Origin: Dehalococcoidia bacterium
GTDB lineage: Bacteria > Chloroflexota > Dehalococcoidia > Lucifugimonadales > Australimonadaceae
NCBI GenBank assembly: GCA_034428375.1
Contig: DAOUHT010000144.1
Location: 1,742 to 65,741, forward strand
Direction: 5' to 3'
Length of the DNA: 64,000 nt
Shown here: positions 681-57,811 of the stretch, in pieces
How the letters are laid out: every line of letters starts with the position of its first letter
Position numbering within the stretch: the first letter of the stretch is position 1
Made by a program: the position numbers and the translations under genes
Notes under the pieces: model-generated
Databases searched by the model: none
The model's input: only the letters and a program-made list of their open reading frames with translations
What the model was told of the DNA's origin: nothing

Positions 681-1277
681 ATGCCGGAATTCCTGGACGT
701 CGTCCGCAGCCAACGGGGCACCGCCTACTACAAGCCAGACCCGATACCGGACGACGTGCTGGGCCAGATACTCGAGGCGGCGACTCGTGCTCCGAGCGGC
801 AGCAACCGCCAGCCGTGGCGGTTCATCGTGCTGCGCGACAGCGAGGTGAAGCGTCAGATGGGCGAGCTGTACCTCGAGGCGCAACGGCGCATGACGGGCG
901 GGACGTCGGCCAGCGCACCGGGGGAGGAGCCCGCACACTTCAGCGGCGCGATGGAGGACGTGCCGGTGCTGGTGATGGTGTGCGTGGAGCGGTGGGAGCT
1001 CCGGGGCAGCGAGACGTACCGCGGAGCGTCGATCTACCCCGCGGTGCAGAACCTGATGCTGGCAGCGGCATCGTTCGGCCTCGGCACACGCCTCACGACG
1101 GTCTGGCAGCACTGCTACGAAGACGTGGCTGCGCTGCTGGGCGTGCCGGACGACTGGTGGATGATGGCGATGACCCCGATCGGCTACCCGGCCCCGCCGG
1201 ACCACCTGGGCGGCAGCCGCCGCAAGCCAATCTCCGAGGTAACGTTCTACGACAAGTGGGGCAACGCGGGGGCGTAA
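681..1277 (+). CDS. nitroreductase family protein
   Basis: N-terminal RRS-like motif and RAPSGSNRQPWRF, characteristic of FMN nitroreductases. ATG preceded by GGAGG. Confidence 0.8.
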   Translation: MPEFLDVVRSQRGTAYYKPDPIPDDVLGQILEAATRAPSGSNRQPWRFIVLRDSEVKRQMGELYLEAQRRMTGGTSASAPGEEPAHFSGAMEDVPVLVMVCVERWELRGSETYRGASIYPAVQNLMLAAASFGLGTRLTTVWQHCYEDVAALLGVPDDWWMMAMTPIGYPAPPDHLGGSRRKPISEVTFYDKWGNAGA

Positions 1278-29829: not shown

Positions 29830-31911
29830 ATGGCCATCTACCGCTACTCCCGATGGGACGGCTCGCAAGAGGTCCCCATCCCCACGACCGACGACCTGTT
29901 CGACCGGCTCTCCGAGCAGATCCTGCAGGGCGACGACCTCCGCGGGGCGCTCAACCGCATGATGCGTTACGGGATGCGCGGCGAAGGCCAGCGCGGCGCG
30001 GGGCTGCAGGACCTGCTCGAACGGCTCCGCGACGCCCGCCAACGCAACCTCGACCGCTACGACCTGTCCACCATGTTCGACGACATCCAGGAGCGGCTCG
30101 ACGGCATCATCGGCAAGGAGCGCGAGGGCATCAACCAGCGGTTGGAGGAGGTCGAACCGTCGTCCGATGGCGGTCCGCAGGACGGAGGCGGACAGGACGG
30201 AGAAGGCGGAGAAGGCGGGGGCCAGCCCGGCGGAAGCGGGGCGCCACCGAGCGAACTTGCGGACATGCTCCGGCAGATGGCGAACAGGCGGCTGAACCAG
30301 CTGGACAAGCTCCCCGAGGGGGCGGGCGGTCGCATCAAGGAGCTCCGCGACTACGACTTCATGGACAGCGGGGCGCGCGAAGACTTCGACGCGCTCATGC
30401 AGGAGCTCCAGCAGCAGTTCCTCCAGCAGTACTTCCAGGGGATGCAGGAGAGCCTCCAGAACCTGACCCAGGGCGACCTCGCCCAGATCGCGGAGATGGT
30501 GCGCGACCTCAACGAACTCGTGAAGCAGAAGCTGCAGGGCGACGACCCGGACATCAACGACTTCATGAACAAGTGGGGACACATGTTCCCGCCGGGCATC
30601 GAGACATTCGACCAGCTGATGGACTACATGTCCAACCAGATGGCGCAGATGCAGTCGCTGATGAACTCGATGTCGCCGGAGATGCGCCGACAGCTCGAGG
30701 AGATGATGGACGGTCTCCTGCAGGACAACCGCCTCGCGTGGGACCTGTTCGAGCTCGGGACGAACCTGGAACGGATGAACCCCAACAGCTTCCCGGACAA
30801 CGACTTCCGCCTGTTCGGGGACGAACCCGTCACCCTGCAGCAGGCGCTGCAGTTGATGGGCGACCTGAACGACATGGAGGAGTTGGAGCAGCAGTTGCGC
30901 CACGCGCTCCGCACCAACGACGCCACGAACCTCGACGCGGACGAACTCGGCAAGGTGCTCGGCGAGGAGGCGCGGCAGTACGCGCAGGAACTCCAGCGGC
31001 TCACGAAGGAGCTGGAGGAGGCGGGCCTCATCCGCAAGCGCGGGCAGAACGGCTGGGAGCTGACGCCCCAGGCGATGCGGAAGATCGGCGACAAGGCGTT
31101 GACCGACATCTTCAACCGCATACGCGGCGGCGACATCGGCGACCACAACCGCGACAAGAGCGGGGTTGGCGTCGAGATAACGGACGAGACGAAGCGGTGG
31201 GAGTTCGGCGACCCGCTCCACCTCAACACGCTCAAGACCGTGAGCAACGCCGTGCTCCGCGAGGGGCCGGGCACGCCCGTCCGCATCAAACCGGACGACT
31301 TCGAGATAGACCGCACCATCTCCCAGACGCGCGCATCCACGGTCATCGCGATCGACATGAGCTACTCGATGTTCTGGGACGGCGCGTTCCAGGCCGGCCA
31401 GCGCGTCGGGCTGGCTCTCGACACACTCATCCGCTCGAAGTTCCCCAAGGACCAGGTGAGCGTCGTCGCCTTCTCATACTTCGTGCTGCCGATCCAGTCC
31501 CACATGCTGCTCGACACCTACTGGGTGGAGTTCGGCGGCGGCACGAACTTCCAGGAAGTGCTCCGCCAGTCACGGCAGATACTCGGCAGGCAGGGCGGGA
31601 ACAACAAGCAGATCATCCTCATCACGGACGGCGAGCCCACCACGTACAACTGGACGGAGAGCGACCTGCGGGCGAACTACGGGCGGCGGGGCGGCGGGCT
31701 CGTCGAGGCCACGATGCGCGAGGTGATGCGCTGCACACGCGACAACATCACCATCAACACGTTCATGCTGGACCAGAGCCCGTCGCTGCTGCGGTTCGTG
31801 CAACTGATGACGAAGATCAACAGGGGCCGCGCGTTCATCGCGAGCCCGCACAGCCTCGGCTCTTACGTCGTGTCGGACTACGTCTCGAACCGGAACAAGG
31901 TCATCCGCTGA
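29830..31911 (+). CDS. vWA-domain protein with long helical/acidic N-terminal region
   Basis: Starts MAIYRYSRWDGSQ. C-terminal vWA domain has an intact MIDAS (VIAIDMSYSM ... GGTNF ... ILITDGEPT). The track start at 29794 (TTG) coincides with a -35 box, so ATG 29830 is preferred. Confidence 0.8.
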   Translation: MAIYRYSRWDGSQEVPIPTTDDLFDRLSEQILQGDDLRGALNRMMRYGMRGEGQRGAGLQDLLERLRDARQRNLDRYDLSTMFDDIQERLDGIIGKEREGINQRLEEVEPSSDGGPQDGGGQDGEGGEGGGQPGGSGAPPSELADMLRQMANRRLNQLDKLPEGAGGRIKELRDYDFMDSGAREDFDALMQELQQQFLQQYFQGMQESLQNLTQGDLAQIAEMVRDLNELVKQKLQGDDPDINDFMNKWGHMFPPGIETFDQLMDYMSNQMAQMQSLMNSMSPEMRRQLEEMMDGLLQDNRLAWDLFELGTNLERMNPNSFPDNDFRLFGDEPVTLQQALQLMGDLNDMEELEQQLRHALRTNDATNLDADELGKVLGEEARQYAQELQRLTKELEEAGLIRKRGQNGWELTPQAMRKIGDKALTDIFNRIRGGDIGDHNRDKSGVGVEITDETKRWEFGDPLHLNTLKTVSNAVLREGPGTPVRIKPDDFEIDRTISQTRASTVIAIDMSYSMFWDGAFQAGQRVGLALDTLIRSKFPKDQVSVVAFSYFVLPIQSHMLLDTYWVEFGGGTNFQEVLRQSRQILGRQGGNNKQIILITDGEPTTYNWTESDLRANYGRRGGGLVEATMREVMRCTRDNITINTFMLDQSPSLLRFVQLMTKINRGRAFIASPHSLGSYVVSDYVSNRNKVIR

Positions 31912-32110: not shown

Positions 32111-32899
32111 TTAGCGGCCCGGGAAGTTCGGCGGGCGCTTCTCTCTGAACGAGCGCACGCCCTCCAGGAAGTCCTCGCTCGCTTCGACGCGGTCGAGCGC
32201 GCGCAGGCGTTCCTCGGGCACCTGGTCCGCCGTGCCGAACTCCAGCAGATCGCGTATCACCTGCTTGTGCGTGCGGTGCGACACCGGCGAGAGCGACGCG
32301 ATCTCCACGGCGAGCGCACGCGCATCGTGCATGAGCGCGCCGCCGTCCACCACGACGCTGACGACGCCCGACGCCAAGGCGCGTTCCGCTGGAATCATGC
32401 GGCCCGTCAGCATGAGGTAGGCCGTGTCGCCCGGCCCCGCGAGGCGCAGCAGGCGGTCGATGTGCCCGTGCGACACGCCGATGCCGCGCTTCGCCGCAGG
32501 CAGCCCGAACTGCGCGTCCGTCGACGCTATACGGACGTCGGCGTAGAGCGCGAGCTCCAGCCCTCCGCCGAGGCAGTAGCCGCGTATCGCGGCGATGGTC
32601 GGCTTGGAGAGCGCGTTCAGCGCGTCGCACGCGTCGTGCACCGCCTGCCGGTAGTTGCGCGCGCGGTCGGGCGTGCTGCGCGTCTCCTCGAAGTCCTTGA
32701 TGTCCGCGCCTGCCGAGAAGGCCTTCTCTCCCGCGCCGGTCAGCAGCACCGCGCGCACCGACTCGTCAGCGTCCAGCTGGGCGAAGAGCGCCGGGAGGCG
32801 CATCCACATGTCGTAGGAGATGGCGTTCCGCTGCTCCGGACGGTTCAGCGTCAGCGTTGCGACCGCGCCGTCGCGCTCTAGGAGTAACTCATCGGTCAC
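32111..32899 (-). CDS. enoyl-CoA hydratase/isomerase family protein
   Basis: LTLNRPEQRNA, LLTGAGEKAFSAGADI and GYCLGGGLELAL crotonase motifs. The GTG start overlaps the coxG stop (GTGA). Confidence 0.85.
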   Translation of the reverse strand: MTDELLLERDGAVATLTLNRPEQRNAISYDMWMRLPALFAQLDADESVRAVLLTGAGEKAFSAGADIKDFEETRSTPDRARNYRQAVHDACDALNALSKPTIAAIRGYCLGGGLELALYADVRIASTDAQFGLPAAKRGIGVSHGHIDRLLRLAGPGDTAYLMLTGRMIPAERALASGVVSVVVDGGALMHDARALAVEIASLSPVSHRTHKQVIRDLLEFGTADQVPEERLRALDRVEASEDFLEGVRSFREKRPPNFPGR

Positions 32900-51301: not shown

Positions 51302-53383
51302 TCAGGCGCACCACTCAATGCGAGGCAAGGCGTCCGGGTGGTCCGGAAGCCGGATGACGATGTCCAAGACACTCTCGCCGTCTACCTTGAAGCGGGTTGC
51401 GTCTTCCCGTACGATGGTGAACCCCCTTGGGCCGTGCCACCCTACGAAGGTGCATCCCTCTTTGGAGTCCGGACTTACGCCGGGGGCGAACACGTCCACA
51501 ATGAAGGAACCGTCGGGGACTACTATGGCAAAGGAGCCGTCCTCCCCGGTCGTAGCAGTGCCGACATTGTCCACGAAAGTGTCGGCTCCGTCGGGCCAGG
51601 CCCGCAGGAATGTCCCTTCCACCGGCTGATTGTTCGGCCCTATCACCTTGCCCTGAATGGTGACGATTTCCTCGGAGGGGTACTGGACCTCCGATGGCGT
51701 GTAGGGCGACATGTCGAATCCCTGCTCATCAAAGTAGATCAGGCGATTGGGTATTGTCCTCAGGATCGAAATGATCTCGGCGGTCGTCAGCCGTTCTGAT
51801 TGATACCGCACGGCGAACCACGCAAGGAAGCTCTCCGCGACATCCTCTGTGTCCGGATTGTCCCGGGCATACTCCGAGATGAAGACACCGTCGGCCTCCT
51901 GCGCCGCACGCCAGCCGGGGGAGCCTTCGTGCGTTTGGTCCAGCGTGGTATGTGTGGCTTCATGGACGAATACTTCCCCGAAATCACCCGGCTCCCGATC
52001 CGGATAGATGACGATGATCCCTAAGGTTTGGGACGCATTCCACCTTCCCTCGCCGGGGTGGATGTCCACGTGCTTGATACCGGGCATCAGGACCGCCGGT
52101 ATCTGTCCCAGGGCATGGGTGTACGTCTCGACTGCCCCTTGTGCGGCCTCTCTGCTGCCGAGTTCGGGATAGACGCGGAATTCCACCACGTGTCCGGCGT
52201 ACCGTACATCGAACAGGTAAGTATCGATCGTAATCGTCATTTCGGACTGTTTATCCCAGTGAGGGAGCTCGCCGCGACCCGCGTACGTGATGCTCTCCAA
52301 CGTGGTGGGATCGGAGGGTTCGATGACCTGCGGTGAGATAAGCGTTGTCCCTACGAACGGAGGCGTGCCCGTGTGTTCGAGTTTGAAGTCCAGCGTGCGG
52401 TCTTCCTCCATGGCGATCTCGACGGTCTCGGGTTCGTGGGTGGGCTCGGCGATGACACTAACCGTGACCGTCCCCCAGACGTTCGGGAAGCGGTAGCTTC
52501 CGTCGGGACCGATGACCATGGATTTCAGTTTGCCGTTCTCGAGCCGCACGACGGCGCCCGCCAGTACTGGCCCGTTCTCCCGGCTGTCACGTACCGTCCC
52601 AGATAGAGTGAACGTGGGTGGAACCGCTACCAGTGCGGACCCGGACGCAGCGCCCGCACTGGCCGTGATCGTCGCCTCCCCTTCCGCAATCCCAGACACC
52701 AGACCAAGCGCATCTACCTCTGCCACGAGGGCGTCGGCGGACTCCCACGAGAATTCAGCCCCAGCCACCGGATGCCCGTTCGCGTCGAGCGCCTCCGCCG
52801 CCAGCTGAACGGTCTCGCCCCATGCGATCAGCTCGGTCACGGACGGCGTCACCTCCACTGAGGCTACCTCCTGCGTCACCGTCACAACCGCGGACCCTGA
52901 TGCCGACCCAGCCGACGCCGTGATCGTCGCCGTCCCGTTGCCCGCTCCTGTCACGACACCGGCCGCATCCACCGTCGCCACCGAGCTGGCGCTGGTCGTC
53001 CAGGTCACGGTGACTCCAGTCATTACCGTGGAGTCCTGGTCACGCACCTCCGTCCTCAGTTGTGCCGTTGCGCCAAGTGCAGTCAGATCCACCGTAGCGG
53101 GGCTGACCGTGACCGACGCAGAGCGGGCGGGCTCAGATGTCGCTGTAGCAGTCGGCTCCGGGATTGGAGTGGCGGTCGCAGCCGTCGTTGGTTCCGGCGC
53201 GGAGTGGGTGGGCTCAGGTGTCGCTCCAGCAGTTGGCTCCGGGCTTGGAGTGGCGGTCGCAGCCGTCGTTGGTTCCAGCGTGGGAGGGGGGCTGTCGCTG
53301 CAGGCGCTCAAGGCCAAGGCGATGAGCAGCGTCGCCATAATCGCGAGCCAGCGGGTGGGAAGCCGGTGTGTCTCGATTCGCAC
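51302..53383 (-). CDS. large lipoprotein: PT-rich repeats, 2 BIg2 domains, 2 carboxypeptidase-regulatory-like domains and an HExxH module
   Basis: GTG 53383 after GAGGA gives the signal peptide VRIETHRLPTRWLAIMATLLIALALSAC. BIg2-like repeats (ATVDAAGVVTGAGNGTATITAS). FVHEATH motif at 51950-51964. Confidence 0.75.
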   Translation of the reverse strand: MRIETHRLPTRWLAIMATLLIALALSACSDSPPPTLEPTTAATATPSPEPTAGATPEPTHSAPEPTTAATATPIPEPTATATSEPARSASVTVSPATVDLTALGATAQLRTEVRDQDSTVMTGVTVTWTTSASSVATVDAAGVVTGAGNGTATITASAGSASGSAVVTVTQEVASVEVTPSVTELIAWGETVQLAAEALDANGHPVAGAEFSWESADALVAEVDALGLVSGIAEGEATITASAGAASGSALVAVPPTFTLSGTVRDSRENGPVLAGAVVRLENGKLKSMVIGPDGSYRFPNVWGTVTVSVIAEPTHEPETVEIAMEEDRTLDFKLEHTGTPPFVGTTLISPQVIEPSDPTTLESITYAGRGELPHWDKQSEMTITIDTYLFDVRYAGHVVEFRVYPELGSREAAQGAVETYTHALGQIPAVLMPGIKHVDIHPGEGRWNASQTLGIIVIYPDREPGDFGEVFVHEATHTTLDQTHEGSPGWRAAQEADGVFISEYARDNPDTEDVAESFLAWFAVRYQSERLTTAEIISILRTIPNRLIYFDEQGFDMSPYTPSEVQYPSEEIVTIQGKVIGPNNQPVEGTFLRAWPDGADTFVDNVGTATTGEDGSFAIVVPDGSFIVDVFAPGVSPDSKEGCTFVGWHGPRGFTIVREDATRFKVDGESVLDIVIRLPDHPDALPRIEWCA
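53129..53290. repeat. 2 x 81-bp tandem direct repeat inside the lipoprotein gene
   Basis: Units start at 53129 and 53210 (GGGCTCAGaTGTCGCT... / GGGCTCAGgTGTCGCT...). They encode the repeated EPTTAATATPxPEPTAxATxEP segment. Confidence 0.8.
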
Positions 53384-54019
53384 TATGTCCTCAAGCCTTG
53401 CAAATGAACAGCTTGTTGGAGCAATTCTCGTGGCTGGTTCTTCAAAATCCAAGTTAAGCGCAAGTGCCGGGCAGGCACAATGAGGGGCCATATCTTGGGA
53501 CCTCTGCCGACGACGTTCCGTTTCCCGGAGAGCGTCGTCGAGGAGGAGTCGCTTACGGGTTTCCCGCGTTCTGATGCGGCTCCAGGTCGCAGGTCCTCGC
53601 CAGATCAGATTGTTGGACGGCTTCGTCTAGGGGAACGTGTTGCGGTTGGCGTTCCCGCGGCCCGGTCCGGCCAGTTGCTGAAGTCTCTGGCGACGTCCGC
53701 GTACCTGTTTCGGCCTCTCACCTGCACATCGTATTGCCGGCCATTGACCAAGCCATCGATGGTGGTTCCGCCCTTCTGTTGGATCCTGTTCCGCATTTGC
53801 CCATGAAACGCTAGAGGCTCGGCATCGATTCGATAAGTACCAACCATCACTCTTGGGGAGGTGACTTGGCGCGCAAATTGTTGGCTCTAATGGAGAGTGC
53901 TTCTGCAATTCTGTGCCCTTGCTGACCGCTTGGACGGAGGCGAACGCAGTGATAGAGGCAGGAGGCATCCTGCCGTGCCGCGCAACGGCTCCGCATTGAG
54001 GACGGGTGGAAGGAACGAA

Positions 54020-55017: not shown

Positions 55018-55833
55018 ATGATGAGCCCACCCGAAGCCTCGGCTGTTCCTGCGCGCCCCAGGCGCGCGTCCGTAGTCGGCGTCGCGCTGCTGGCCGCCGG
55101 TGCGCTCCTGCTCGCCGCCGCCGCCGCCTACTACGCCTACGGCTACTTCGCCGGGCGCGACCTGGACCGCCTCACGGTCGTCGTCCCCGACCCCGTCGCC
55201 GAAACGCTGGGGGCTGCGCCTGCCTCACAGGAACTCTATCCGGGCTCGCGCGTGCCAGCCCGGCAGTGGGCCGACCCGCGCGGCGCCATCACGCTCGGTG
55301 TTCCTGATCTGGAAGGCTTTATCCCCCTCGGCAACGAGGGGCGACCGCACATCGCGGGCGTCGTTGGCAGGGCGAAACGCATCGCCATCCCGCAGCTCAA
55401 CGTCAGTGCCGAGGTCGAGGAGCTCAGCATCATCAACCTCGCATCGAGCGCCGCCTACGAGACACCCGCATTCACCGTGGGCCACATCCCCACGACGCCG
55501 AACCCCGGTTCGGCGGGGAACGGCTGGTACTTCGGCCACCTGGAGAACCCGCTCCAGGGCGAGGGGAACGTCTTCCTCCGGCTCCCTGAGATCGCAGACC
55601 TGCTGCGCGACGGCGAAGACGTTCACGTCATCCTTACCGCAGACGGACGCGATTACCTCTATCTCGTGAACGGCACGAGCACCGTGCACGCGGACGACCT
55701 CACCCTTTACCTGTCGGAAGACGCGCGCATCTCGCTCGTCACCTGCTTCCCGCGCCTCAAGTACGACCATCGGCTCATCGTCACCGCGCAGCTCATCGCC
55801 TTCAGGGATGCCCCCGCGCCGGAAAGCGCCTGA
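55018..55833 (+). CDS. sortase family transpeptidase (class E/D-like)
   Basis: N-terminal TM anchor, FGHL His motif, ISLVTC catalytic Cys motif and the downstream RLIV Arg. Confidence 0.8.
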   Translation: MMSPPEASAVPARPRRASVVGVALLAAGALLLAAAAAYYAYGYFAGRDLDRLTVVVPDPVAETLGAAPASQELYPGSRVPARQWADPRGAITLGVPDLEGFIPLGNEGRPHIAGVVGRAKRIAIPQLNVSAEVEELSIINLASSAAYETPAFTVGHIPTTPNPGSAGNGWYFGHLENPLQGEGNVFLRLPEIADLLRDGEDVHVILTADGRDYLYLVNGTSTVHADDLTLYLSEDARISLVTCFPRLKYDHRLIVTAQLIAFRDAPAPESA

Positions 55834-55868
55834 AACCGCCTCATCTGAAAGCGCGTAAAATAGAAACG

Positions 55869-56753
55869 ATGGCTACAGCACAGGGATCCGGCCTCCTCGT
55901 GCGAACAGCAGCTGCCGGGCTGCTCCTGCTCGCGGTCGCCGCTTGCGCCAGCAACGAGGTACCCGTCGTAACCGAGCCGCTGGCCAACACCCCAACCCCT
56001 GTCCCGACGAGCACCCCCCCGCCGGTCCCCACCGACACTCCCGTTCCGGCCCCTACGAACACGCCGACTCCGGAGCCCCAGCCTACGGATACGCCGGTCC
56101 CTGACCCCTTGGGGAGCGAGGGGACCGTCGAGGGTGTGCTCGCCCAGCCGACCCCCACGCCGGAGCCGCCGCCCACTGCTACACCGACGACCAGGATGCT
56201 GCCAGAAAACACCCCAACCCCGACTCTCCCGCCTCCCCCCACCAACACGCCGGTCCCGGCGCCCACCGACACTCCGACGCCCGAACCGGCGCCAGCAAAC
56301 GGCTGGCGTACCGACATCGCCACCGGCTCCGGCATCGGCGACCGTGCAGTCGACGCCTCGCTGACCCTCGCCGACGGCTCCACCGGCACCATCGAGTCCA
56401 CAGCCGGAGGACGCGCCGTCCTGCTCTACTTCTTCGCCACGTGGTGACCGTCCTGTAACGCCGAGTTACGGACGTTAACCAGCCTCTACAACGACTACAG
56501 CAGCGATGTCGAAGTCGTATCTGTCGCCTTCAGCCAGAACGCCGACCAGCTCGGCGCGCACGCCGCGCAACGGGGCTACGCGGGAGTGTTTGCGGAGGGC
56601 CCTGCATCCCTCGTCCGCGACTACAACGTCCGCCAGCAATCGTCGTGGGTCGGCATCGGACGCGACGGCGCCATCCTCAACAGGCGCGGCTACGGCGCGG
56701 ATGGCGCGTCCTTCTGGCGCGGCGTCCTGGACACGCTGCAGTCCTCGTCCTAG
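55869..56753 (+). CDS. thioredoxin-fold (TlpA/ResA-like) lipoprotein with in-frame TGA at the first redox Cys: candidate UxxC selenoprotein
   Basis: Lipobox LAVAAC and a PT-rich linker, then AVLLYFFATW-TGA(56445-56447)-PSCNAELRTLTSLYNDYSSDVEVVSVAF ... continuing in the same frame to TAG 56751-56753. Confidence 0.75.
56449..56474 (+). promoter_or_regulatory. candidate bacterial SECIS hairpin, paralogue 1
   Basis: CGTCC-U-GTAAC / GCCGA loop / GTTAC-GGACG: 10 bp with one bulged U. Starts 4 nt and ends 29 nt after the U of UGA 56445. Confidence 0.5.
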
Positions 56754-56762
56754 CACTTCCGC

Positions 56763-56800
56763 CATTCCCAAGGAGAGGGTTAGGGTGAGGGTACTGAGGG
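56763..56800. repeat. REP family C element
   Basis: CATTCCCAAGGAGAGGGTTAGGGTGAGGGTACTGAGGG, between the two thioredoxin-fold genes. Confidence 0.65.
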
Positions 56801-56897
56801 CGCTGGTAGGGGTCGACATACGATTCGTGGTGAACCCGTCGGACCACAAGCCTCGCCACCCCTCCCTGTCAATCCCTGTGAATGCGCTCCGCCCGCA

Positions 56898-56927
56898 TTG
56901 ACACCCCCTCCGCACACCGCCTAGCCT
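56898..56927 (+). promoter_or_regulatory. candidate promoter of the second thioredoxin-fold gene
   Basis: Consensus TTGACA (56898-56903), 18 nt, TAGCCT (56922-56927). ATG at 56945. Confidence 0.45.
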
Positions 56928-56944
56928 TAACGAGAGTGAGCGGC

Positions 56945-57577
56945 ATGACCATGCGCAGCGCATCCATATCACGCCTCGCAAAGGCGGGGGCAGCCCTGCT
57001 CCTGCTGCTGGCGACGCTCGCCGCCTGCGGCTCCGACCCCACCGCAACGCCGGTGCCGCAGCCAACCCCGACCCCTGAACCGGGACCGACCGCCACCCCG
57101 GTGCCCGCCGGTTCGGACGGCATGGCAGCCGGGACATGGCGCACCGACGTCGCCGTTGGCTCCGACCACGGCGACCGCGCAGCCAACGCATCGATAACCC
57201 TCCCGGACGGCTCCACCGGCACCCTCGAATCGGCCGCCGGAGGGCGGGCCGTCCTCCTCTACTTCTTCGCCACGTGGTGACCGACGTGCCGCGGCGAGTC
57301 TCGCACGCTGGACACCCTCTACGACGGCTACAAGGACGATGTCGAAATCATTCACGTCGCCTTCAACGAGGACGCTGCGAAACTGGACTCGTACGCCAGA
57401 GACCAGGGCTACGACTGGATCTTCGCCGAGGCCGAGCAGGGCACGCAGCAGGCCTTCAACATCCGCTCGCAGGCGACGTACGTCGGCATCGGGCGCGACG
57501 GCACCATCGTCGCCAGCAGCGCCGGCGGCTCCGGAAAGGACTGGCCCAGCATCCTGGACCAGTTGACCTCTTCGTAG
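56945..57577 (+). CDS. paralogous thioredoxin-fold lipoprotein with in-frame TGA at the first redox Cys: candidate UxxC selenoprotein
   Basis: Lipobox TLAAC and a PT-rich linker, then AVLLYFFATW-TGA(57278-57280)-PTCRGESRTLDTLYDGYKDDVEIIHVAF ... continuing in frame to TAG 57575-57577. Confidence 0.75.
57285..57307 (+). promoter_or_regulatory. candidate bacterial SECIS hairpin, paralogue 2
   Basis: CGTGC (57285-57289) pairs with GCACG (57303-57307). Inner G91-C02, G93-C00 and G94-U99 pairs around a CGAG loop. Its 3-prime end is again 29 nt after the U of UGA 57278. Confidence 0.4.
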
Positions 57578-57588
57578 CCGATCCTGTC

Positions 57589-57650
57589 GTTCCTGCGCAG
57601 GCAGGAACCTCGCCCCTCAAGGCCCTGCGTCGTTCCTGCGTAGGCAGGAC
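57589..57650. repeat. two copies of a REP family A variant (GTTCCTGC n4 GCAGGAAC)
   Basis: GTTCCTGC GCAG GCAGGAAC at 57589-57608 and GTTCCTGC GTAG GCAGGAC at 57632-57650. Confidence 0.75.
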
Positions 57651-57771
57651 GCGCTTTAGCGCGCCCTCCCCCCCGGTTGTCATATTAAGCGGAGCCCGCG
57701 CTTCAGCGCGCAACGCTGGACCCAGTCGTGCCCACCAGGGCACACGGCAGAGTGATGTGGGGGTTGCATGA

Positions 57772-57811
57772 CTCCCCTCTCCCAGAGGGAGAGGGGCCGG
57801 GGGTGAGGGCC
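57772..57811. repeat. REP family C element
   Basis: CTCCCCTCTCCCAGAGGGAGAGGGGCCGGGGGTGAGGGCC. Confidence 0.7.

What the first reader, a model, noticed from the sequence alone, without database searches (positions are those of the whole stretch)
55869..57577. Two tandem thioredoxin-fold lipoprotein genes with an in-frame TGA exactly at the first Cys of WCxxC: candidate unannotated UxxC selenoproteins
The ORF track ends both ORFs at the same sequence, ...GGRAVLLYFFATW-TGA (TGA at 56445-56447 and 57278-57280).

- Reading on in the same frame gives PSCNAELRTLTSLYNDYSSDVEVVSVAFSQNADQLGAHAAQRGYAGVFAEGPASLVRDYNVRQQSSWVGIGRDGAILNRRGY... to TAG 56751-56753.
- The second gene gives PTCRGESRTLDTLYDGYKDDVEIIHVAFNEDAAKLDSYARDQGYDWIFAEAEQGTQQAFNIRSQATYVGIGRDGTIVAS... 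to TAG 57575-57577.
- These are the missing ~100 residues of a TlpA/ResA-type thioredoxin fold. The beta1 strand and Trp lie before the TGA; xxC and the rest of the fold lie after it.
- There is no start codon or RBS for an independent downstream gene.
- A nonsense mutation at the identical catalytic codon in two clearly diverged paralogues is unlikely.
- TGA acts as an ordinary stop elsewhere in the window (for example 31909-31911 and 32896-32898), so this is not a reassigned genetic code.
- Both proteins carry lipoprotein signal peptides (LAVAAC, TLAAC) and Pro/Thr-rich linkers, so they would be surface-tethered extracytoplasmic redox selenoproteins.

Selenocysteine forms of thioredoxin-fold proteins are known in principle. 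A tandem lipoprotein pair like this would be missed by standard gene calling.
Basis: partly seen in the sequence, partly recalled or inferred. Interest (0 to 1): 0.85.

Follow-up and report, generated by a model that had tools for sequence, protein, structure and literature searches.

The report
Two unannotated selenocysteine thioredoxin-fold lipoproteins
Two neighbouring genes of a sponge-associated SAR202 (Chloroflexota) bacterium almost certainly read an in-frame TGA as selenocysteine in the active site of membrane-tethered thioredoxin-like proteins; this type of selenoprotein is already known, but gene callers cut every member of this group short.

Summary
Both genes (55869-56753 and 56945-57577) carry TGA exactly where TlpA/ResA/tryparedoxin homologues have the first Cys of WCxxC.

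- **Conserved TGA and frame.** The same TGA, followed by a conserved frame of about 100 codons, occurs at 178 sites in about 150 loci, mostly Dehalococcoidia/SAR202 MAGs. dN/dS after the TGA is 0.12-0.47.
- **SECIS.** A 6-7 bp hairpin starts 10 nt after the TGA and has a G-U/G apical loop. It matches the bacterial SECIS model and shows compensatory changes at all 7 pairs (92% paired; 30-47% in slid controls).
- **Genetic code.** TGA is an ordinary stop for many other genes in the window.
- **Sec machinery.** It was not seen in the window. A congeneric bin with the same gene pair (SAR202 bin16) is reported to have SelA, SelB and SelD, and a true SelA lies 5.7 kb from a family member in another Dehalococcoidia MAG.
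- **Novelty.** UxxC TlpA-like selenoproteins have been listed as a family since 2005, so these are new, systematically mis-annotated members.
- **Difference from TlpA.** This clade replaces the near-universal cis-proline of the fold with Ser/Ala/Thr, so its chemistry may differ from classical TlpA.

The parts
55869..56753 (+). Selenoprotein gene 1: 294 codons with Sec at codon 193, a TlpA-like thioredoxin-fold lipoprotein
   Evidence: Translation. Pfam AhpC-TSA/Redoxin match at residues 156-261 spans the TGA. Orthologues with the TGA occur in L003, L015, L024 and L088.
55869..55946 (+). Gene 1 signal peptide with lipobox L-A-V-A-A-C (Cys26 at 55944-55946)
   Evidence: Sequence. A lipobox-like motif after a hydrophobic run occurs in 117 of 146 distinct family members (regex).
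55947..56297 (+). Gene 1 Pro/Thr-rich linker (117 residues)
   Evidence: Translation. Family linkers have a median length of 46 aa and are 73% P/T/S/A/E.
56445..56447 (+). Gene 1 in-frame TGA, the predicted Sec193 of W-U-P-S-C
   Evidence: Aligns with the first Cys of WCxxC.
56457..56476 (+). Gene 1 family-type SECIS hairpin AACGCCG-AGUUA-CGG(A)CGUU. An alternative, stronger hairpin lies at 56449-56474.
   Evidence: Register analysis and energies: family type -6.5 kcal/mol; alternative -13.1 kcal/mol but only 12 nt from the UGA. Two rare TTA codons supply the pairing bases.
56640..56642 (+). Gene 1 Ser at the position of the thioredoxin-fold cis-proline
   Evidence: Alignment A6.
56945..57577 (+). 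Selenoprotein gene 2: 210 codons with Sec at codon 112, paralogue of gene 1
   Evidence: Translation. Pfam Redoxin match at residues 76-197 spans the TGA. About 40 database clusters of truncated orthologues end in YFFATW.
56945..57028 (+). Gene 2 signal peptide with lipobox T-L-A-A-C (Cys28 at 57026-57028)
   Evidence: The start is supported by homologues P0004/P0005, which begin MTMRSASISRL.
57029..57130 (+). Gene 2 Pro/Thr-rich linker (34 residues)
57278..57280 (+). Gene 2 in-frame TGA, the predicted Sec112 of W-U-P-T-C
57289..57311 (+). Gene 2 SECIS hairpin CC-GCG-GCGA-GUC-UCGC-(A)-CGC-(U)-GG
   Evidence: -9.0 to -10.8 kcal/mol. G17-C27 is a compensatory swap relative to the family's C-G.
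57473..57475 (+). Gene 2 Ala at the position of the thioredoxin-fold cis-proline
   Evidence: HMMER alignments to 4fyu and tryparedoxin and MAFFT alignment A6 both place it opposite Pro.
55018..55833 (+). Sortase gene immediately upstream (35-bp gap), syntenic in all genus-level relatives. Possibly co-transcribed; membership of the system is uncertain.
   Evidence: Pfam Sortase 2e-16. Same order in L001, L003, L004 and L005.

Best explanation
Both genes encode selenocysteine-containing, TlpA-like thioredoxin-fold lipoproteins.

**Proposed mechanism**
1. Translation starts at 55869 and 56945.
2. At the in-frame UGA (codons 193 and 112), a SECIS hairpin lies 10 nt downstream, inside the codons for C-R/N-A/G-E-x-R. 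It recruits SelB carrying Sec-tRNA(Sec), so Sec is inserted and translation runs on about 100 codons to TAG.
3. The precursor is exported, lipidated at Cys26 or Cys28 and cleaved. A Pro/Thr-rich tether then holds the domain outside the cytoplasmic membrane of this presumably single-membrane SAR202 bacterium.
4. The W-U-P-x-C site acts as a selenol/thiol redox centre. Sec is the attacking nucleophile and the Cys three residues on resolves it. An unidentified membrane electron donor probably re-reduces it.

**Shown:** the conserved TGA, the selected downstream frame, the covarying hairpin, family homology and the lipobox.

**Inferred:** actual Sec insertion, export and lipidation, the reductase direction, and the substrate.
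For: **Cys/Sec pairing**
- Full-length Cys homologues read YFFATWCPHC at the same place (P0003, P0021, P0028, P0045).
- Solved structures align WCPPC to the site.
- W, C, P and C are invariant in alignment A6.

**Conservation**
- About 40 database clusters are truncated exactly at YFFATW.
- There are 178 pattern sites. 162 have complete downstream frames, of which 151 are 96-105 aa. All but one of the sites read U-P-x-C; the exception is U-T-V-C.
- Both tandem genes are kept in L003, L004, L005, L015 and L088.
- dN/dS after the TGA is 0.12-0.47.

**SECIS**
- On 116 distinct sequences, 92.2% of cells pair, and 7 of 7 pairs carry changes on both sides (135 cells).
- The covariation score is 0.53 against 0.115 for shuffles (0 of 500 reach it). 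Slid controls pair at 30-47% (smaller set).
- Several compensations use synonymous or rare codons, for example CGG to CGC, CGG to AGG, and TTA.
- The loop has G at position 21 in 116 of 117 sequences, followed by U or G. The loop starts 16-17 nt after the UGA, which fits the published bSECIS model.

**Genetic code:** TGA terminates many domain-complete genes in the window.

**Machinery**
- SAR202 bin16 carries the same tandem pair (L088) and is about 87% identical in DNA to the window.
- Slaby et al. 2017 Table S4 lists SelA=1, SelB=1 and SelD=1 for bin16.
- A real SelA (45% identical to E. coli SelA over 450 aa) lies 5.7 kb from a family member in L145. Its homologues are named L-seryl-tRNA(Sec) selenium transferase [Dehalococcoidia bacterium].
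Against: - No selA, selB, selC or selD lies in the 64-kb window, and no tRNA-Sec lies in any locus held.
- The machinery evidence for this lineage is second-hand: COG counts for a bin of a different species in the same genus.
- Gene 1's family-type hairpin is only -6.5 kcal/mol, weaker than the -7.5 model cutoff. Its stronger alternative hairpin sits too close to the UGA, at 12 nt.
- The hairpin register (bulge or no bulge at position 28) was chosen per sequence, which favours the structure in the pair counts.
- No CcdA/DsbD-type electron donor was seen near any Sec form.
- The clade lacks the cis-proline of classical TlpA/ResA/CcmG, so the disulfide-reductase step is the weakest part.
- There is no protein-level evidence.
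Confidence: 0.9

Rival explanations
1. UGA is read through or recoded with an amino acid other than Sec. Candidates are Cys or Trp from a suppressor or near-cognate tRNA, or Cys delivered by SelB from a Cys-charged tRNA(Sec)-like tRNA. The full-length protein would be made but would not be a selenoprotein.
For: Everything except the identity of the inserted residue would look the same: the conserved TGA, the selected downstream frame and the hairpin. Sec machinery was not seen directly in the source genome.
Against: - The hairpin fits the SelB-type bSECIS model in position and loop.
- SelA, SelB and SelD are reported for the congeneric bin16, and SelA is present in Dehalococcoidia that carry the family.
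- The position is a catalytic Cys in homologues, the classic Sec/Cys pair.
- TGA is a normal stop elsewhere in the window.
Confidence: 0.05
2. The genes are pseudogenes or genuinely short ORFs that end at TGA, and the downstream frame is a decaying remnant.
For: All gene callers stop there. NCBI annotates 111-112-aa 'hypothetical proteins'.
Against: - The same nonsense codon occurs at 178 sites in lineages from 45% to 72% GC, with intact frames of about 100 codons.
- dN/dS is 0.12-0.47 downstream of the TGA.
- A truncated product would lack xxC and three quarters of the fold.
Confidence: 0.02
3. Assembly or sequencing error, or a split gene whose second half is translated from its own start.
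For: None beyond the formal possibility.
Against: - The TGA is identical in independent short-read assemblies (JGI PetF, MKWU01, MPMJ01) and long-read assemblies (ERZ25…/OZ… chromosomes).
- No in-frame start or ribosome-binding site lies within 47 codons after TGA-1. No ORF of 40 aa or more follows TGA-2 in that frame.
Confidence: 0.01

Closest known systems
'Thiol-disulfide isomerase-like protein' selenoprotein family (UxxC, cd02966 TlpA-like). First predicted in the Sargasso Sea selenoproteome (Zhang, Fomenko & Gladyshev 2005, PMC1088965) and listed in Table 1 of the 2026 review PMC13188914.
   Same: A TlpA-like thioredoxin fold, a UxxC motif with Sec at the first position, marine metagenomic origin, and prediction by Cys/Sec pairing plus bSECIS.
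   Different: I could not fetch the family's example sequence (MGB1650493.1), so identity of clade is untested. The lipoprotein anchoring, the tandem arrangement, the SAR202/sponge-symbiont host and the missing cis-proline are not mentioned in the passages retrieved by term search (sponge, Dehalococcoidia, Chloroflexi, lipoprotein, signal peptide).
TlpA / ResA / CcmG (DsbE) extracytoplasmic thiol-disulfide reductases of cytochrome c and CuA maturation
   Same: - Pfam Redoxin/AhpC-TSA/Thioredoxin_8 membership.
- A W-C/U-x-x-C-(R/K)-x-E motif.
- Membrane-tethered and facing outward.
- The nearest Cys forms sit next to a CcdA-type DsbD_TM gene and a cupredoxin gene, as TlpA/ResA systems do.
   Different: - Sec replaces the nucleophilic Cys.
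- Scores fall far below the NCBIfam cutoffs for ResA, TlpA, DsbE and StoA.
- The cis-proline, present in all 36 generic TlpA-family sequences aligned, is Ser/Ala/Thr here.
- No CcdA or cytochrome-maturation genes are adjacent.
Tryparedoxin / nucleoredoxin-like WCPPC proteins (best PDB sequence matches 4fyu and 1ewx)
   Same: Best-scoring solved relatives (E 1e-9). W-C-P-x-C aligns with W-U-P-x-C.
   Different: They are cytosolic eukaryotic proteins with Cys and a cis-proline, and only about 25-30% identical.
E. coli fdhF-type bacterial SECIS, and the general bSECIS model (bSECISearch)
   Same: A hairpin within the coding sequence just after the UGA, a small apical loop with G followed by U or G, and a loop that starts 16-17 nt after the UGA.
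   Different: The hairpin is shorter (6-7 bp, with or without a bulged A) and lies at the minimum allowed spacing. It has no sequence similarity to fdhF. SelB binding is untested.

Membership tests
Bacterial selenoprotein gene (Sec-UGA decoded via bSECIS/SelB) | The in-frame UGA aligns with a Cys in homologues (Sec/Cys pair) | tested here: met
   YFFATW-U-PxC against YFFATW-C-PHC in P0003/21/28/45. WCPPC in 4fyu and tryparedoxin aligns to the site. The column is invariant in A6.
Bacterial selenoprotein gene (Sec-UGA decoded via bSECIS/SelB) | UGA-containing homologues exist in other organisms, with a conserved downstream reading frame | tested here: met
   178 sites were found; 151 of 162 complete frames are 96-105 aa. 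dN/dS is 0.12-0.47.
Bacterial selenoprotein gene (Sec-UGA decoded via bSECIS/SelB) | bSECIS geometry: 3-9 nt apical loop, 4-16 bp stem, G in the first two loop positions, 16-37 nt between UGA and loop | tested here: met
   - Loop of 3-5 nt.
- Stem of 6-7 bp.
- G21 in 116 of 117 sequences.
- Spacing of 16-17 nt.
- Covariation at 7 of 7 pairs.
Bacterial selenoprotein gene (Sec-UGA decoded via bSECIS/SelB) | bSECIS stability of -7.5 kcal/mol or stronger | tested here: inconclusive
   - Gene 2 passes (-9.0 to -10.8 kcal/mol).
- Gene 1's family-type hairpin fails (-6.5 kcal/mol). Its -13.1 alternative violates the spacing rule.
- 89% of family members pass.
Bacterial selenoprotein gene (Sec-UGA decoded via bSECIS/SelB) | selA, selB, selC (tRNA-Sec) and selD are present in the same genome | not testable with these tools
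   - Not in the window or in any locus held, apart from SelA in L145.
- Indirect support: the congeneric bin16 carries the gene pair and is listed with SelA, SelB and SelD.
- Whole genomes cannot be scanned with these tools.
Bacterial selenoprotein gene (Sec-UGA decoded via bSECIS/SelB) | Selenium is demonstrated in the protein | not testable with these tools
   Needs 75Se labelling or mass spectrometry.
TlpA-like thioredoxin-fold family (cd02966; Pfam Redoxin PF08534 / AhpC-TSA PF00578 / Thioredoxin_8) | Domain match above the curated cutoff over the whole fold | tested here: met
   - Gene 2: Redoxin 45.0 bits (cutoff 26.6).
- Gene 1: AhpC-TSA 41.2 bits (cutoff 26).
- Both matches span the TGA.
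- The family profile retrieves proteins named TlpA family disulfide reductase.
TlpA-like thioredoxin-fold family (cd02966; Pfam Redoxin PF08534 / AhpC-TSA PF00578 / Thioredoxin_8) | CxxC dyad at the N-terminus of helix 1, preceded by Trp | tested here: met
   W-U-P-[ST]-C, with U in place of the first C.
TlpA-like thioredoxin-fold family (cd02966; Pfam Redoxin PF08534 / AhpC-TSA PF00578 / Thioredoxin_8) | cis-Proline at the start of strand 3. PMC2757866 states that it is more strongly conserved than CxxC in thioredoxins and cytochrome maturation proteins. | tested here: not met
   - Ala in gene 2 and Ser in gene 1.
- In the Sec clade: S 20, A 10, P 3 of 36.
- The nearest Cys forms have Thr.
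- All 36 generic TlpA-family sequences have Pro.
ResA / TlpA / CcmG(DsbE) / StoA orthologue groups (NCBIfam) | Score above the equivalog or subfamily cutoff | tested here: not met
   The best match is ResA at 46 bits against a cutoff of 170. TlpA scores 25 against 230 and DsbE 28 against 123. These genes are not orthologues of any named member.
Bacterial lipoprotein | N-terminal hydrophobic signal ending in a lipobox [LVI][ASTVI][GAS]C | tested here: met
   VAAC and LAAC follow Leu/Ala-rich runs. 117 of 146 family members match a crude regex. No dedicated predictor was available, and lipidation is inferred.

The most novel reading that the evidence does not exclude
These genes would belong to a SAR202/Dehalococcoidia-wide clade of surface-tethered selenoproteins that has dropped the thioredoxin-fold cis-proline for a conserved Q-[S/A]-[T/S]-K loop. 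On this reading they are not classical disulfide reductases. They would use an exposed selenolate for something else, such as peroxide or sulfenic-acid reduction at the cell surface, or handling a soft metal such as copper. The clade would also be a main reason why sponge-symbiont Chloroflexota keep SelA and SelB when their free-living relatives do not.
Probability: 0.2. Interest if true: 0.6.

Novelty: new member of a known kind. Interest (0 to 1): 0.4.

Why it matters
- **Annotation.** Every member of this clade in a collection of 5.8 billion predicted-protein clusters is cut off at the Trp before the active site. SAR202 and sponge-symbiont proteomes therefore lack a whole set of extracytoplasmic redox proteins, and the Sec trait of these genomes looks purposeless.
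- **Ecology.** Slaby et al. 2017 reported that SelA and SelB are enriched in sponge symbionts. The passage retrieved here names no client selenoprotein, and these genes are concrete candidates.
- **Biochemistry.** A Sec-for-Cys, cis-proline-less TlpA relative is a natural experiment on what those two residues do in the thioredoxin fold.

None of this changes what is known about how Sec is encoded.

Tried and rejected
- **tRNA-Sec.** ARAGORN and Rfam on the window and about 150 loci found none. A 93-nt 'tRNA-Cys(GCA)' in L037 and L054 looked like an odd tRNA(Sec) relative. It lies inside a coding region and Rfam does not score it, so it is a false positive.
- **Sec machinery on a relative's chromosome.** I tried to place SelA on the same chromosome as a window relative by matching contig lengths. 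The SelA search listed only its best 120 hits (62% identity or more to the L145 query, which comes from another SAR202 lineage), and none matched. A near match (3,014,931 against 3,014,901 bp) proved to be two different contigs.
- **Electron donor.** tblastn with CcdA from the Cys-form loci found nothing near any Sec form. Neighbours of distant Sec forms show no common theme: MFS transporters, a P-type ATPase, NicO-like, DUF4396.
- **Multi-copy family.** One MAG has nine pattern hits, but seven of them have a stop 10-17 codons upstream. A gene fragment is riding on a dispersed repeat; these are not nine paralogues.
- **Other selenoprotein genes in the window.** A crude scan for TGA sites with coding signal on both sides gave only the cdsA / cytochrome c junction, which is two separate genes. 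That scan also missed the two known sites, so it is weak.
- **Rfam.** No known family matches 55800-57700; only chance-level hits appear.
- **RNAalifold.** On an unadjusted alignment it found only the 3-bp core, because sequences differ in having a bulge. I then fixed the register by hand.
Full report
**1.

Reading the window gives two genes.
- Gene 1 runs from ATG 55869, with TGA at 56445-56447 (codon 193), then 101 further sense codons in frame to TAG 56751-56753.
- Gene 2 most likely starts at ATG 56945, since homologues begin MTMRSASISRL. Its TGA is at 57278-57280 (codon 112), followed by 98 codons to TAG 57575-57577.

Both read ...GGRAVLLYFFATW-TGA-P[S/T]C. With C written in place of the stop, Pfam Redoxin/AhpC-TSA/Thioredoxin_8 matches run unbroken across the TGA. 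Gene 2 scores 45 bits for Redoxin and gene 1 scores 41 bits for AhpC-TSA; the cutoffs are about 26.

The next in-frame start after the first TGA is 47 codons away. After the second TGA, no ORF of 40 aa or more exists in that frame.

Both N-termini have a Leu/Ala-rich signal ending in a lipobox (VAAC with Cys26; LAAC with Cys28). Pro/Thr-rich linkers of 117 and 34 residues follow.

The window is 66.6% GC. The genetic code is therefore not reassigned.

**2. Origin**

- The exact gene 1 fragment lies on a JGI contig from sample 3300002734, whose contig names carry the prefix 'PetF', which I read as a Petrosia ficiformis sponge metagenome.
- Syntenic relatives, about 87-89% identical in DNA, occur in several places: long-read Dehalococcoidia MAG chromosomes such as OZ242348.1 (3.30 Mb); the Aplysina aerophoba metagenome MKWU01; and 'SAR202 cluster bacterium bin16', MPMJ01.
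- All show the order tRNA-Val, DUF1330, small ORF, sortase, gene 1, gene 2, CoxS-like, CoxM-like.

**3. The TGA is conserved, and so is what follows it**

- A protein search returned about 40 clusters of 86-119-residue 'proteins' that all end in YFFATW. NCBI names them 'hypothetical protein [Chloroflexi bacterium]'.
- In every genus-level relative, both tandem genes keep the TGA and an intact frame of about 100 codons.
- The pattern TAYTTYTTYGCNACNTGGTGACC was scanned against two collections.
  - The metagenome scan gave 24 loci, with GC from 45% to 72%.
  - The species-representative genome scan gave 117 stretches from about 95 assemblies, 93 of them Dehalococcoidia/Chloroflexota.
- Over all loci there are 178 sites. 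Of these, 162 have a complete downstream frame, and 151 of those are 96-105 residues. All but one of the sites read U-P-x-C; the exception is U-T-V-C.
- Thirty of 148 loci carry two copies within 8 kb.
- Against orthologues, dN/dS of the post-TGA region is 0.12-0.47.

This rules out pseudogenes, sequencing error and a chance ORF.

**4. Sec/Cys pairing**

- The nearest full-length database proteins (P0003, P0021, P0028, P0045; 32-35% identical) read YFFATW-C-PHC at the site.
- The best solved relatives are 4fyu, tryparedoxins, ResA and CcmG. They align their WCPPC/WCxxC to W-U-P-x-C.
- A profile of 36 diverse Sec forms retrieves those four Cys forms at 137 bits, then generic 'TlpA family protein disulfide reductase' entries at 113 bits or less. 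No full-length Sec form appears. Gene callers have therefore truncated the whole clade.

**5. SECIS**

Every family member can form a hairpin from nucleotide +14 to +30/31, counting the U of UGA as 1. It has a 3-4 bp core (17-27, 18-26, 19-25, often 20-24) plus three more pairs, either continuous or after a bulged A28.

I placed the bulge in its own column and used the pair-counting tool.

| Measure | 25 sequences | 116 distinct sequences |
|---|---|---|
| Cells paired | 94.3% | 92.2% |
| Pairs with changes on both sides | 5 of 7 | 7 of 7 (135 cells) |
| Covariation score | 0.489 | 0.53 |
| Shuffled score (shuffles reaching the observed value) | 0.094 (0 of 500) | 0.115 (0 of 500) |
| Paired when the 3' partner is slid 1-3 columns | 31-49% | 30-47% |

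The caveat is that I chose the register per sequence, which leans towards the structure.

Several compensations cannot be explained by protein conservation.
- GCC...CGG becomes GGC...CGC, where the Arg codon change is synonymous.
- GAG...CGG becomes TCG...AGG, again a synonymous Arg change.
- In gene 1, AAC...TTA uses a rare Leu codon in a genome with about 85-90% GC3.

The loop has G21 in 116 of 117 sequences, followed by U or G, and begins 16-17 nt after the UGA. The published bSECIS model asks for a 3-9 nt loop, a 4-16 bp stem, G in the first two loop positions, 16-37 nt spacing and -7.5 kcal/mol or stronger.
- Gene 2 meets all of these (-9.0 to -10.8 kcal/mol).
- Gene 1's family-type hairpin is weaker (-6.5 kcal/mol). 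Its stronger alternative (-13.1 kcal/mol) sits only 12 nt from the UGA.

The low-GC Cys forms have no comparable hairpin. That is a weak control because of their base composition.

**6. Sec machinery**

- None lies in the window, and no tRNA-Sec lies in any locus I hold.
- Whole genomes cannot be scanned with these tools.
- Two indirect links exist.
  - Slaby et al. 2017 (PMC5649159) report that SelA and SelB co-occur in most A. aerophoba symbiont bins. Their Table S4 gives SelA, SelB and SelD as 1 or more for all nine Chloroflexi bins, including bin16 at 1, 1 and 1. Contig MPMJ01000005.1 of bin16 carries this very tandem pair (L088).
  - A tblastn with E. coli SelA, SelB and SelD against all loci found a genuine SelA (45% identity over 450 residues) at L145:483-1922, 5.7 kb from a family member. 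Its many homologues are annotated as L-seryl-tRNA(Sec) selenium transferase of Dehalococcoidia.

**7. What the proteins are, and one real oddity**

They belong to the TlpA-like branch of the thioredoxin fold. They are not orthologues of ResA, TlpA, CcmG or StoA: NCBIfam scores fall far below the cutoffs.

The nearest Cys forms sit beside a CcdA-type DsbD_TM gene and a cupredoxin/COX2-like gene. That is the usual arrangement for outward-facing reductases. No such partner is near the Sec forms.

The clade also lacks the cis-proline at the start of strand 3.
- Two independent alignments put Ala177 of gene 2 and Ser258 of gene 1 opposite the Pro of 4fyu, tryparedoxin and all 36 generic TlpA-family sequences.
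- In the Sec clade, that column is Ser 20, Ala 10 and Pro 3 of 36, within a Q-[S/A]-[T/S]-K motif.
- The four nearest Cys forms have Thr.
- The thioredoxin-fold atlas (PMC2757866) states that this proline is more conserved than CxxC in thioredoxins and cytochrome maturation proteins. It says the proline probably contacts substrate and may prevent metal binding, and that peroxiredoxins have Arg there.

I therefore hold 'Sec-containing thioredoxin-fold lipoprotein' with high confidence. 'Disulfide reductase like TlpA' I hold only as the most likely chemistry.

**8. Novelty**

UxxC thioredoxin-fold proteins are the commonest kind of bacterial selenoprotein.
[quoted passage not shown] - I could not test whether that family is this clade.
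- No paper in the library mentions selenoproteins together with SAR202.

The finding is a correct detection of new, systematically mis-annotated members of a known kind. The added points are lipoprotein tethering, the tandem arrangement, concentration in SAR202 and the missing cis-proline.

**9. Verdict**

| Item | Assessment |
|---|---|
| Observation | confirmed |
| Confidence in Sec decoding | about 0.9 |
| Novelty | modest |
| Interest | 0.4 |

Noticed in passing
L048, L064, L068, L077, L083, L089, L093, L095, L140 (MAG CBDEFY01, isolate b072644e): Nine near-identical copies of the segment ...FILYFFATW-TGA-PHCRAELRTLHELTSQFGD... are spread over four contigs. Seven have a stop only 10-17 codons upstream of the TGA. 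The 3' two-thirds of a family member seems to travel with a dispersed repeat or mobile element.
   Followed up: partly
window 56640-56642 and 57473-57475; alignments A5 and A6: The thioredoxin-fold cis-proline is replaced by Ser or Ala within a conserved Q-[S/A]-[T/S]-K loop across the Sec clade, and by Thr in the nearest Cys forms. All 36 generic TlpA-family sequences keep Pro.
   Followed up: partly
window 55018-55833: A sortase gene lies 35 bp upstream of gene 1 and keeps that position in all genus-level relatives (L001, L003-L005). Neither UxxC protein has an LPXTG-type signal, and distant family members have no sortase nearby.
   Followed up: partly
window 57584-57652 and 57772-57802: Two tandem copies of a hairpin, GTCGTTCCTGCG[C/T]AGGCAGGA (stem TTCCTGC/GCAGGAA), lie just after gene 2. 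A further palindrome, CCCCTCTCCC-AGA-GGGAGAGGGG, lies further on. They could be terminators without a T-run or repeated extragenic palindromes. The consensus terminator scan did not call them.
   Followed up: no
window 51302-53491 (- strand): A 729-aa Big_2-domain protein also has a lipobox (LALSAC) and a Pro/Thr-rich linker like those of the two selenoproteins. This suggests a shared style of surface tethering in this organism.
   Followed up: no
L037:2472-2564 and L054:506-598: ARAGORN calls a 93-nt 'tRNA-Cys (GCA)' with a long extra arm near family members. It lies inside a coding region and Rfam gives no tRNA match, so it is a false positive.
   Followed up: yes
L030/L031:452-2112 and L032:491-2172: The nearest Cys-containing homologues, from low-GC marine contigs, sit in a conserved cluster: DsbB-like, cupredoxin/COX2-like, DsbD_TM (CcdA-like), then the TlpA-like gene. 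This suggests a copper-centre or cytochrome maturation role for the Cys branch.
   Followed up: partly
L083:1743-2531: A weak SelA-like reading frame (26% identical to E. coli SelA over 287 aa) lies about 1.2 kb upstream of a family-member fragment. It may be one of the extra COG1921 paralogues counted in sponge-symbiont bins.
   Followed up: no
L106 (Bacteroidia MAG CAZFEC01), TGA near 1162-1184 (- strand): The same YFFATW-TGA pattern is followed here by PPCC and a 387-residue frame that is unrelated after the first 100 residues or so. It may be a fusion protein with a Sec-containing thioredoxin-like N-terminal domain.
   Followed up: no
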